Source: a virus (lineage: Duplodnaviria; Caudoviricetes). Taken from it: 64,000 bases of DNA. The stretch covers positions 1 through 64,000 of IMG/VR virus record IMGVR_UViG_3300013947_000027; one strand, given 5' to 3'. The notes under the pieces are model-generated. The model made no database searches and had not been told where the DNA came from. It was given only the letters and a program-made list of their open reading frames with translations. Every line of letters begins with the position of its first letter. Position 1 is the first letter of the stretch. Below are positions 6,884-35,553 of this stretch, in pieces. A program made the position numbers and the translations under genes.

Positions 6884-6932
6884 AAAACACTTAAAATAGC
6901 TCAAAATAGCTCCAAAAACCGCAAAATAACCT

Positions 6933-7220
6933 ATTTAATGTATTACAATAATTCATCAAGCCCCTAAAATCCAAATCCTTTCAGTTCATTATTCTGAACC
7001 AGAATTCGCGATTTTGCCTCCGAATTATCGTATTACAATAATTAAAAACGGGCATTTAATGTATTACATTAATTCAAAATAGCCAAAAATCGATTTAATG
7101 TAATACAATAAATAGGCTAAAATGATTTAATGTAATACAATAAATAGGCTAAAATGAATTAATGTAATACAATAAATCACCTAGAAAACACTAAAAATGA
7201 ATTAATGTAATACAATAAAT
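6933..7220. repeat. Seven copies of a near-palindromic 21-mer ATTTAATGTA(A/T)TACAATAAAT (iteron/operator array)
   Basis: Copies at about 6933, 7024, 7054, 7093, 7125, 7157, 7200; 32-bp period between 7093 and 7157. Confidence 0.85.
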
Positions 7221-7228
7221 CGACTATT

Positions 7229-26655: not shown

Positions 26656-26732
26656 AGTTAAATCTCCTTTTCAAAAATAATTATTAAAAATAAAAGAGGA
26701 CCCGATGTTTCAACCGAGTCCTCTTAAAGATA

Positions 26733-26888
26733 AAAAATATACGCTGTGCACCAATAGCCGAATCAACCTCCTATTTCACCAGTGTCTATCCACCACAAAC
26801 TCTGTGCACTTTACGCCGAATCAACCTCCTATTTCACCAGTGTCTATCCACAACAAACGTAACCTTTTAGAATAGTGTATACTCTTTC
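26733..26888 (-). ncRNA. Small RNA C containing two tandem 58-nt repeats
   Basis: Repeats at 26744-26801 and 26802-26859; closing stem GAGTATACACT/AGCGTATATTT; motif 26909 upstream; strong terminator at 26692-26725. Confidence 0.7.
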
Positions 26889-26914
26889 ATAATAGGGTCT
26901 GTATTTTTCGCGAA

Positions 26915-27304
26915 TTAAATGTCTACTACATCTTCAATTTTATAAAGTTTCTGTGCGGCTAAGAACTTGTTTTGTCTTTCTGTGAGAACACTTAATTCAG
27001 AATGAACGCATTCAAGACAATTGCATAAATCTTTTTCGCCCGGATGCGAAAGCAACTGCTTAAGTAGATATCCTTCTCGATCCTTGCGATAGGCAATCTT
27101 TCTTCCAACTGTTGCAAGTGCTTCATCAAACAGACCTTCACTTGCAGCACTCATAAGAGTATTCGTGTCATCAGCAACCCTAACGATCTGGTTATAGCTG
27201 CTAAAATATTTAATTCCAAAATATGCAGCTGCACCAGAGGCAAGAGTTGCAGCAGCGGTAGATGCAACAAGAATGACCTTTTCACGCTTAGTAAGCTTTT
27301 TCAT
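26915..27304 (-). CDS. Membrane-anchored hypothetical protein
   Basis: Basic N-terminus plus a TM helix. Confidence 0.6.
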   Translation of the reverse strand: MKKLTKREKVILVASTAAATLASGAAAYFGIKYFSSYNQIVRVADDTNTLMSAASEGLFDEALATVGRKIAYRKDREGYLLKQLLSHPGEKDLCNCLECVHSELSVLTERQNKFLAAQKLYKIEDVVDI

Positions 27305-27334
27305 ATTTTCTCCTTTCAAAATATAAAAGCACAT

Positions 27335-35427: not shown

Positions 35428-35553
35428 TGGTGTCAGAGGCAGGACTCGAACCTGCAATATCTTCTATGGCGCCCTCTTCGTTTGAAGTTCGGACCGAAAC
35501 CACGTACGAAGCACCTATTGTCTTAGCGTCTCTACCAATTCGACTACTCTGAC
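35428..35553 (-). ncRNA. 126-nt tRNA-like RNA (Leu-like acceptor, D and T arms, CCA) with the anticodon/variable region replaced by about 70 nt
   Basis: GTCAGAG/CTCTGAC-ACCA; GTC-GAATTGGTAGA-GAC; GCAGG-TTCGAGT-CCTGC. Confidence 0.8.

What the first reader, a model, noticed from the sequence alone, without database searches (positions are those of the whole stretch)
26733..26888. RNA C: promoter-driven tandem 58-nt repeat RNA, possible antitoxin mimic
Seen: two adjacent copies of GTTTGT(T/G)GTGGATAGACACTGGTGAAATAGGAGGTTGATTCGGC-N5-GTGCACAG that differ almost only in a 5-nt window. They lie between a motif copy and a strong terminator and contain no credible ORF. Established: type III toxin-antitoxin antitoxins (ToxI, CptI, TenpI, AbiQ) are tandem-repeat RNAs, and phages can escape such systems with repeat mimics. 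Inference: a stand-alone antitoxin mimic or multivalent protein sponge; no toxin gene is adjacent.
Basis: partly seen in the sequence, partly recalled or inferred. Interest (0 to 1): 0.75.

Follow-up and report, generated by a model that had tools for sequence, protein, structure and literature searches.

The report
Two-headed structured phage RNA gene
The "tandem repeat" is a conserved, uncatalogued non-coding RNA gene of large gut Clostridia phages that folds into one Y-shaped molecule with two near-identical heads. It is not an array of antitoxin repeats, and its target is still unknown.

Summary
Two 58-nt units lie head to tail on the minus strand (26858-26801 and 26800-26743), between a phage promoter motif and a terminator, with no conserved ORF.

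It is not a recent neutral duplication. About 18 related RNAs from a dozen phage contigs all carry the units in pairs (2, 4 or more per RNA).

Compensatory changes support one global fold:
- a closing stem between the 5' end and the tail;
- stem S1 around head 1;
- stem S2 around head 2;
- one hairpin in each head.

Overall, 98.5% of cells are paired, 18 of 27 pairs show double changes, and 0 of 500 shuffles reach this.

The two heads evolve in concert: 97% identity within an RNA against 86% between RNAs. There is no Rfam match, no ToxN-type toxin, and no host copy in the roughly 550 Clostridia-class genomes searched (399 by BLAST, 151 by the model). A gene for a small membrane-anchored helical protein (F0) adjoins the RNA in 13 of 16 loci.

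Best reading: a stable trans-acting RNA that binds a partner bivalently. The target is unknown, and membership of the type III antitoxins is not supported.

The scan held no look-alike sequence elsewhere, only analogous modular phage RNAs of unrelated sequence.

The parts
26888..26914 (-). Phage promoter motif (TTCGCGAA at 26914-26907, TATTATG at 26894-26888). The transcript probably starts at or just after the final G.
   Evidence: It is one of more than 25 co-oriented copies in the window. A related motif precedes the RNA in all relatives that have upstream sequence. The start site is inferred, because the closing stem always begins at that G.
26877..26887 (-). P0, 5' strand of the closing stem
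   Evidence: It pairs with 26742-26732 over 11 bp. An equivalent 5'-end/tail duplex of different sequence is present in 14 of 14 RNAs and always starts at tail position 1-2.
26856..26862 (-). S1, 5' strand (linker plus first 3 nt of unit 1)
   Evidence: It pairs with 26817-26811. This is helix 1: 7 pairs, 5 with changes on both sides, 97% of cells paired.
26838..26853 (-). P1a hairpin of head 1 (5 bp, loop GAUAGA)
   Evidence: Predicted by RNAalifold. Helix 2: U-A to C-G and G-U to U-A switches.
26818..26837 (-). Conserved purine-rich junction strand of head 1 (GAAA turn at 26835-26832, GGAGG at 26829-26825, then UUGAUUC)
   Evidence: These are the most conserved columns of alignment A1. In two divergent members the GAAA is the tetraloop of a real inserted hairpin.
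26811..26817 (-). S1, 3' strand.
   Evidence: The window covaries with the linker upstream of unit 1.
26804..26809 (-). S2, 5' strand (X, GUGCAC)
   Evidence: It pairs with 26751-26746. There are 6 pairs, 5 with double changes, and none broken in the 18 rows of A1; in A3 one cell of the 22 rows is unpaired (99.2% paired).
26801..26803 (-). AGA side of a conserved asymmetric internal loop at the base of head 2
   Evidence: AGA (or AGG) is conserved in all members and lies opposite UAUUG at 26756-26752.
26780..26795 (-). P1b hairpin of head 2
   Evidence: helix 6: 5 pairs, 4 with double changes.
26760..26779 (-). Conserved junction strand of head 2 (same sequence as in head 1)
   Evidence: Within-RNA head identity is 97% against 86% between RNAs.
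26752..26756 (-). UAUUG: the 'variable window' of unit 2, in fact a conserved loop strand (UAUUG, UAUCG or CAUCG in all members)
   Evidence: Its first base pairs with the last A of AGA (columns 69-114).
26746..26751 (-). S2, 3' strand (X')
26732..26742 (-). P0, 3' strand of the closing stem (runs into a U-tract)
26684..26725 (-). Intrinsic terminator hairpin plus U-run. It is an extra terminator present only in the window's lineage and its closest kin.
   Evidence: It is absent in L032-L034, L043 and L056, where the closing stem plus U-run ends the RNA.
26915..27334 (-). F0 gene (139 aa, or 129 aa from the second ATG): membrane anchor plus helical hairpin. It is the conserved neighbour of the RNA.
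   Evidence: Homologues lie directly upstream and/or downstream of the RNA in 13 of 16 loci. AF2 gives an all-helical model. There are no Pfam, PHROG or PDB matches.

Best explanation
This is a self-standing gene for a structured non-coding RNA of about 160-200 nt. Transcription starts at a phage-specific promoter. The first 11 nt pair with the 11 nt that follow unit 2 (closing stem P0). Inside P0 sit two arms. Arm 1 is stem S1 capped by head 1. Arm 2 is stem S2 plus a conserved AGA/UAUUG internal loop, capped by head 2. Each 44-nt head is a small junction with three features: a 5-bp hairpin with loop RAUNGA; a GAAA turn, which is a real GNRA hairpin in divergent members; and an exposed conserved purine-rich strand (GAGG...GA.UC). 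The '58-nt tandem repeat' is simply the two heads with their non-equivalent flanks. The fold and the RNA-gene status are shown (about 0.9). The mechanism is inferred (about 0.35-0.4): the RNA acts in trans as a stable bivalent binder, that is a decoy, sponge or scaffold, presenting two identical heads to one partner. The partner is most likely a dimeric or doubly bound host or phage factor. The RNA belongs to an accessory early-region module together with the F0 membrane protein. It is dispensable, because some relatives have lost it.
For: The pair is conserved. nhmmer finds units only in pairs in all intact loci, and 4-unit RNAs are two dimers inside one closing stem.

Structure:
- RNAalifold independently finds both head hairpins and S2; 13 of its 20 pairs show double changes.
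- On the model-fitted alignment of 22 RNAs, 98.5% of cells pair and 18 of 27 pairs carry compensatory changes. 0 of 500 shuffles reach this, and slid controls give 26-43%.
- The closing stem is present in 14 of 14 RNAs with unrelated sequences and always in the same register.
- Many G-U pairs make the fold strand-specific, which points to RNA rather than a DNA site.

Selection: the RNA is 90% identical between the window and L035, while the adjacent F0 proteins are 48% identical.

Heads are homogenised: 97.1% identity within an RNA against 85.8% between RNAs, and 0 of 10000 random pairings reach this. Where the heads do differ (L059, L036a) the hairpin changes are compensatory.

Stand-alone status: the downstream context varies (a 68-aa gene, a promoter plus tRNA genes, or F0).

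Accessory status: sister lineages have none, or a promoter-less one-unit remnant overrun by the upstream ORF.
Against: - There is no expression evidence. No RNA-seq holder was available, so the transcript, its ends and its stability are inferred.
- The target is unknown and nothing shows binding.
- The two-headed design could serve dosage or processing into two small RNAs rather than bivalency.
- Concerted evolution of the heads could be plain gene conversion without functional meaning.
- Single-sequence folding energies are not better than shuffles.
- The alignment used for pair counts was fitted to the model.
- Many rows are close relatives, so the independent events are fewer than the cells.
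- One short contig of a wastewater run joins the leader directly to unit 2. This could be a one-headed variant or an assembly collapse.
Confidence: 0.55

Rival explanations
1. RNA-protein pair with F0. The RNA is the cognate partner of the adjacent membrane-anchored F0 protein, as an antidote, regulator or RNP subunit. This would be type III-TA-like in locus logic but with a non-nuclease, all-helical protein.
For: F0 homologues adjoin the RNA in 13 of 16 loci, upstream and/or downstream, down to 37% protein identity. F0 paralogues and RNA copies multiply together: L041 has 4 F0 paralogues with 5 RNA dimers by the model plus a more distant tandem pair, and L036 has 3 with 3. In L043, L044 and L056 the order is promoter, two units, U-run, RBS, F0 gene. 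That order meets the formal locus criteria of Blower et al. 2012 (PMC3401426). Head sequences drift between phages, as expected for a co-evolving phage partner.
Against: The soluble domain of F0 is acidic (pI about 5 in 21 of 23 members). It is an antiparallel helical hairpin behind a membrane helix and is unlike any known RNA-binding toxin. L054 keeps the RNA without F0 within the 14.9 kb held. F0 copies outnumber or are outnumbered by RNAs. Only weak PADLOC AbiEi hits were found (4 of 23, best E 1.4e-4).
Confidence: 0.2
2. Shine-Dalgarno or rRNA/tRNA-directed decoy. Each head displays GGAGG plus flanks to titrate the 30S anti-SD tail or another translation component, or the heads dock tRNA.
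For: GAGG is invariant and sits in an apparently unpaired strand in both heads. The strand GGAGGU-U-GAUUC can be drawn against the 16S 3' tail with one bulge, by my own inspection. In five loci the RNA sits directly in front of the phage tRNA array. GGUGAAA fits the GNUG/UG..A T-loop box of tRNA-elbow-docking modules (PMC3664808).
Against: The other invariant positions (UGA.AUA, GA.UCG, and the RAUNGA loop) are not explained by anti-SD pairing. Local alignment of a unit to three Clostridia-class 16S genes scores at the shuffled mean. The second T-loop lacks the invariant AG..A. In divergent members the GGUGAAA box is replaced by an ordinary GNRA hairpin, which a double T-loop could not tolerate.
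Confidence: 0.12
3. Cis-acting leader: a tandem riboswitch or attenuator controlling the downstream gene through the terminator.
For: In the window the order is promoter, two similar domains, terminator, RBS, 68-aa gene. In L043, L044 and L056 an F0 gene follows the U-run.
Against: The downstream gene is not conserved: the 68-aa gene follows only in the window lineage and L054, and a new promoter plus tRNAs follows in L032-L034, L042 and L052. The 68-aa gene family exists without the RNA in two sister lineages. No alternative antiterminator pairing is seen. No Rfam riboswitch hit is found even at E of 10 or less.
Confidence: 0.07
4. Type III antitoxin or pseudo-antitoxin mimic: repeats that neutralise a host ToxN/CptN/TenpN/AbiF-type nuclease.
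For: The layout is promoter, 2.0 repeats of 58 nt, terminator, gene, and the repeat length and number fall within published ranges (31-62 nt, 1.9-5.6 copies; PMC3401426). The hosts are gut Clostridia, where cptIN and toxIN are common (same paper).
Against: The units are integrated in one fold with non-equivalent flanks. Copy number is fixed at pairs. No PF13958 match occurs in the phage, although that search also rang in no control genome. No PADLOC or PDB hit was found for the 68-aa gene. No host locus carries the core: 1 hit in 185,579 species genomes, and that hit is a phage contig. Nothing was found in 151 and 399 sampled genomes. There is no Rfam hit, including the abiF motif.
Confidence: 0.05
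5. Functionless recent tandem duplication, or a DNA-level repeat such as a protein-binding site or recombination scar.
For: One sister lineage (L003-L011) has a single unit. Assemblies break at the repeat.
Against: The pair is conserved across phages whose neighbouring proteins are only 37-48% identical. There are compensatory changes in five helices and frequent G-U pairs. The single-unit lineage lacks the promoter and the closing stem, so it is a decayed remnant.
Confidence: 0.02

Closest known systems
Type III antitoxin RNAs (ToxI, CptI, TenpI, AntiQ) and the phage PhiTE pseudo-ToxI
   Same: A promoter-driven, ORF-less RNA with tandem similar units, followed by a terminator and a small gene. 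Unit length and number fall within the published ranges (PMC3401426). It is phage-borne and sits in an accessory region.
   Different: The units are two arms of one global fold with different flanking stems. The copy number is fixed at two or multiples of two. There is no ToxN-like nuclease, and the neighbouring conserved protein is a membrane-anchored helical hairpin. No host counterpart of the repeat was found.
Pseudo-dimeric or tandem-domain structured RNAs (tandem glycine riboswitch, class I NAD+ riboswitch nadA motif, guanidine-II mini-ykkC). Comparison recalled from my own knowledge, not tested beyond Rfam.
   Same: Two similar structured domains in one transcript. A GNRA-type element and a conserved internal loop suggest a compact tertiary fold.
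   Different: Those are cis-acting 5' leaders with expression platforms and conserved downstream genes. This RNA is stand-alone with variable neighbours. Its two domains are kept 97% identical. No Rfam model matches it.
Small stable RNAs and large ornate RNAs of phages that sit by tRNA genes (T4 RNA C/D, ROOL, GOLLD). Recalled; ROOL and GOLLD structures in bioRxiv 10.1101/2024.12.08.627333.
   Same: Phage-encoded and structured, often next to tRNA arrays, with unknown function and the 5' and 3' ends paired.
   Different: Unrelated sequence and size. The two-headed design and the linkage to the F0 gene family are specific to this RNA.
Multivalent protein-sponge sRNAs (CsrB/RsmZ type)
   Same: A repeated purine-rich motif containing GGA/GAGG is presented several times on one stable RNA.
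   Different: Common variants read UGAGG and lack the GGA that CsrA needs. There are only two sites, embedded in elaborate heads. No evidence of CsrA binding exists.

Membership tests
Type III toxin-antitoxin antitoxin RNA | Tandem array of nucleotide repeats preceded by a promoter (Blower et al. 2012, PMC3401426) | tested here: met
   Two 58-nt units lie behind the promoter motif. Length and number fall within the published ranges.
Type III toxin-antitoxin antitoxin RNA | Terminator, then a ToxN/AbiQ, CptN or TenpN-type endoribonuclease gene next to the repeats | tested here: not met
   A terminator is present. The next gene (68 aa) has no Pfam, PADLOC or PDB match, and it occurs without the RNA in sister phages. 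No PF13958 match is found in the whole phage, but the control genomes also gave none. F0 is all-helical.
Type III toxin-antitoxin antitoxin RNA | Equivalent units that each fold on their own and are cut to unit length by the toxin | tested here: not met
   The flanks of the two units differ and form S1, S2 and P0 of a single fold. The processing itself is not testable here.
Phage pseudo-antitoxin or repeat mimic of a host RNA | Sequence likeness to a host-encoded repeat RNA; copy number expands under selection | tested here: not met
   The core pattern gave 1 hit in 185,579 species genomes, and that hit is a phage contig. The covariance model over 151 genomes and BLAST over 399 genomes of the MAG's order and class found only that contig. 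Copy number is always in pairs.
RNA anti-CRISPR / CRISPR repeat mimic | Unit resembles a host CRISPR repeat; repeat-spacer periodicity with differing spacers | tested here: not met
   The 'spacer-like' half is as conserved as the hairpin half. No repeated match was found in the 399 genomes. The sensitivity of that BLAST for 28-nt repeats is limited.
Riboswitch / cis-regulatory leader (any Rfam class) | Match to a curated model; conserved downstream gene and expression platform | tested here: not met
   No relevant Rfam 15 hit was found at E of 10 or less on the locus, or at E of 1 or less on five relatives. The downstream genes vary.
[quoted passage not shown] | Two interdigitated T-loops with invariant AG..A and UG..A cores (PMC3664808) | tested here: inconclusive
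   GGUGAAA fits GNUG/UG..A. The other loop, however, reads AU.GA rather than AG..A, and divergent members replace the UG..A box with a GNRA hairpin.

The most novel reading that the evidence does not exclude
The RNA and the F0 membrane protein form a new kind of phage-borne RNA-protein module. A two-headed structured RNA would restrain, guide or sense a membrane-anchored helical protein. The module diversifies by paralogue expansion, with up to four F0 genes and at least ten heads (five model-detected dimers, plus a more distant tandem pair) in one phage. It would serve in inter-phage exclusion or counter-defence. That would extend RNA-antidote (type III-like) logic to a non-nuclease effector.
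Probability: 0.2. Interest if true: 0.85.

Novelty: categorically new. Interest (0 to 1): 0.62.

Why it matters
It adds a well-supported, uncatalogued RNA class to the small set of phage non-coding RNAs whose fold is backed by covariation. Its design is unusual: two heads kept nearly identical inside one fold, multiplied up to at least ten heads per genome, and tied to an unknown membrane-protein family in the hypervariable early region, where phages keep host-takeover and anti-defence genes. Sister phages with and without the RNA exist and the architecture is simple, so the function can be tested directly by pull-down, by head deletion, and by co-expression with F0. A caveat: large unsupervised catalogues of candidate phage and gut RNAs (PMC10690425, PMC8040213) may already contain it unnamed, and I could not check them.

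Tried and rejected
- **Tandem Repeats Finder:** it found nothing at its thresholds; the repeat finder did find the pair.
- **Near relatives:** BLAST of the locus against 50,697 phage records gave no match. Two exact-pattern scans of IMG/VR gave nothing before a shorter degenerate core worked.
- **Upstream protein:** The search for related loci gave nothing in IMG/VR.
- **Single-sequence folding:** z-scores were not significant, and the MFE structures were misled by inter-unit pairing.
- **Expression:** no RNA holder is listed. Laid contigs of three runs show only assembly breaks at the repeat, plus one 151-nt contig joining the leader to unit 2, which is ambiguous.
- **16S rRNA mimicry (h23 GGUGAAAU...AGGAGG):** alignment scores equal the shuffled mean, so this was rejected.
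- **AAUAG/CUAUU pairing inside unit 2:** no compensatory support and it conflicts with the G1-C44 pair, so it was rejected.
- **Hammerhead-like core (UGAU.. and GAAA):** the order is wrong and there is no Rfam hit, so it was rejected.
- **CsrA sponge:** common variants lack GGA.
- **F0 annotation:**
  - No Pfam, PHROG or PDB hit by sequence.
  - Foldseek gave only generic helical hairpins, with the tRNA-binding arms of FemA and SerRS at the top but E of 0.15 or more.
  - The ESM Atlas gave nothing usable.
  - PADLOC AbiEi hits were weak, in 4 of 23 members.
- **Antisense ORF:** not conserved.
- **Earlier scan notes:** no look-alike sequence.

Full report
**What is there.** The window is the first 64 kb of a complete 102-kb IMG/VR phage record. 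The genes in this region run on the minus strand.

On that strand, 26858-26801 and 26800-26743 are two head-to-tail 58-nt units, 88% identical. A 25-nt core occurs twice in the window against 0 expected.

Directly upstream lies one of more than 25 co-oriented copies of a phage promoter motif, TTCGCGAA at 26914-26907 and TATTATG at 26894-26888. Downstream lies a 13-bp terminator (26725-26694), then an RBS and a 68-aa gene (26655-26449).

There is no sense-strand ORF, and the antisense ORF is not conserved. Rfam 15 gives nothing relevant, even at E of 10 or less.

**Relatives.** I used the 68-aa protein as a handle.
- Identical phages (L022, L023) carry the same two units.
- A sister lineage (L003-L011; protein 88% identical) has one diverged unit. 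It has no promoter, and the upstream 154-aa ORF runs into it.
- Two further lineages have no unit at all.

Taken alone, this could have suggested a young duplication. A degenerate 23-nt core pattern then found more distant carriers: three IMG/VR contigs, one 5-kb contig binned in a Clostridia MAG, and ten metagenome contigs. The remaining pattern hits were chance matches in a marine protein gene.

In every intact locus the units come in pairs. Some RNAs hold four units, as two pairs, and L036 and L041 carry three to six pairs.

The single-unit lineage is a decayed remnant. It lacks the promoter, the leader and the 5' strand of the closing stem. L054 shows the intermediate state: the 164-aa gene is fused to the last codons of the lost F0 gene, with the promoter and RNA intact.

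**The fold.** Comparing members shows that the two units are not equivalent repeats. They are two arms of one structure.
- **P0.** The first nucleotides after TATTATG pair with the nucleotides that directly follow unit 2, and a U-run follows. This holds in 14 of 14 RNAs with quite different sequences, always in the same register. In four-unit RNAs P0 encloses both pairs.
- **S1.** The linker just before unit 1 pairs with the '5-nt variable window' of unit 1. The helix continues into the unit as G1-C44, U2-G43 and U3-G42.
- **S2.** The 6-7 nt after that window pair with the 6-7 nt after the UAUUG of unit 2. In the window both strands read GUGCAC, which hid the pairing.
- **Internal loop.** Between S2 and head 2 lies a conserved asymmetric loop, AGA opposite UAUUG.
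- **Head hairpins.** Each head has a 5-bp hairpin with loop RAUNGA.

RNAalifold, run without guidance, recovered both hairpins and S2 with its extension. Thirteen of its 20 pairs show double changes.

A covariance model built with the full structure aligned 22 RNAs. On that alignment:
- 98.5% of cells form pairs;
- 18 of 27 pairs have compensatory changes;
- no shuffle out of 500 reaches these values;
- sliding the partners by 1-3 columns drops pairing to 26-43%.

The alignment is fitted to the model and many rows are kin, so the numbers overstate the independent events. However, the switches are plain by eye in unrelated contigs, for example UGGUG/CACUG against UUGCG/CGCAA. The abundant G-U pairs mean the fold exists only on this strand, so it is an RNA fold.

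**The heads.** After the hairpin comes GUGAAAU and then an invariant purine-rich strand (GAGG, GA.UC) that returns to S1 or S2. Two divergent pairs in L041 replace GUGAAAU with real hairpins capped by GAAA or GUAA. The GAAA is therefore best read as a GNRA-type turn of a minimal third helix, and each head as a small three-way junction.

The heads of one RNA are 97.1% identical, while heads of different RNAs are 85.8% identical. None of 10000 random pairings reaches the observed value. Where the two heads do differ (L059, L036a), the hairpin changes are compensatory.

The heads are thus homogenised, by conversion or by selection for sameness, while their flanking stems stay distinct.

**Context.** A gene for a 130-160-aa protein family (F0; in the window 27334-26915) lies directly upstream and/or downstream of the RNA in 13 of 16 loci, down to 37% identity. 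It multiplies along with the RNA in L036 and L041.

F0 has an N-terminal membrane helix and a confidently modelled antiparallel helical hairpin. It has no Pfam, PHROG, PDB or meaningful Foldseek relative. Its soluble part is acidic.

What follows the RNA varies: the 68-aa gene only in the window's lineage and L054; a new promoter with tRNA genes in five loci; and an F0 gene in three. The RNA is therefore a stand-alone gene in an accessory module, not the leader of a particular gene.

**Comparison with known systems.** By the formal locus criteria for type III toxin-antitoxin systems, the layout fits. Those criteria are promoter, tandem repeats, terminator and gene, with repeats of 31-62 nt in 1.9-5.6 copies (PMC3401426). 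The defining content does not fit.
- There is no ToxN-type gene. No PF13958 match was found, although that search also rang in no control genome. The neighbours have no PADLOC or PDB match.
- The units are non-equivalent and locked in one fold.
- Copy number is fixed in pairs.
- No host-encoded counterpart was found. The core pattern hit only a phage contig among 185,579 species genomes. The model and BLAST found nothing else in 151 and 399 genomes of that MAG's order and class.

A CRISPR-repeat mimic, a riboswitch, a hammerhead-like core, a CsrA sponge, a 16S h23 mimic and a double T-loop tRNA-docking module were each considered. Each was either not met or left inconclusive.

**Verdict.** It marks a previously uncatalogued, covariation-supported phage ncRNA family with a two-headed architecture. 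The most likely mode of action is a stable trans-acting bivalent binder, a decoy or scaffold. Direct partnership with F0 is the most interesting rival, at about 0.2.

Function and expression remain untested, since no RNA-seq holder was available. The scan's earlier notes hold no look-alike sequence. They do describe analogous modular phage RNAs next to small protein genes in other genomes.

Noticed in passing
L036:10712-10905 and L041:5440-5620: Further RNAs in the same chassis (promoter, closing stem, U-run), each holding two tandem near-identical bodies of different sequence. The L041 one keeps the AAUAGA hairpin loop and a GGAGG..GAUUC strand, so it looks like a distant member with a larger inserted hairpin. 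The L036 one is more remote (loop AACUGA). Two-headed RNAs seem to be a recurrent design in these phages.
   Followed up: partly
L012-L021, about 60-100 nt upstream of the 66-aa gene: In this sister lineage the promoter motif is followed at once by the terminator hairpin, so transcripts from it would begin inside or just before the hairpin. This is the reverse of the usual terminator-then-promoter order seen elsewhere in the window.
   Followed up: no
window 6927-7226: Seven copies of a 23-nt AT-rich repeat at about 32-nt spacing (families D8 and D11). It looks iteron-like and could be a replication origin or a protein-binding array.
   Followed up: no
window 35431-35553 (-): An Rfam tRNA hit of 123 nt (41.8 bits) next to three normal tRNAs. 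It is a tRNA-like gene with a long insertion.
   Followed up: no
window 26915-27334 and L036, L041, L043: The F0 protein family (membrane helix plus helical hairpin, conserved motif around AASEGLFEEA) is phage-restricted, unannotated, and present in 2-4 paralogues in some phages. The top Foldseek rows are the tRNA-binding coiled-coil arms of FemA and seryl-tRNA synthetase, but they are not significant (E of 0.15 or more).
   Followed up: partly
window 26800 junction, run X1: One 151-nt contig of a wastewater cDNA library joins unit 2 directly to the leader that precedes unit 1 in the window. This is either a natural one-headed variant or an assembly collapse across the repeat.
   Followed up: no
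L054:6088-6160: A natural recombinant in which the 164-aa gene is fused in frame to the last five codons of the F0 gene. F0 is deleted, but the promoter and the RNA are intact, so the RNA can persist without an adjacent F0 gene.
   Followed up: partly
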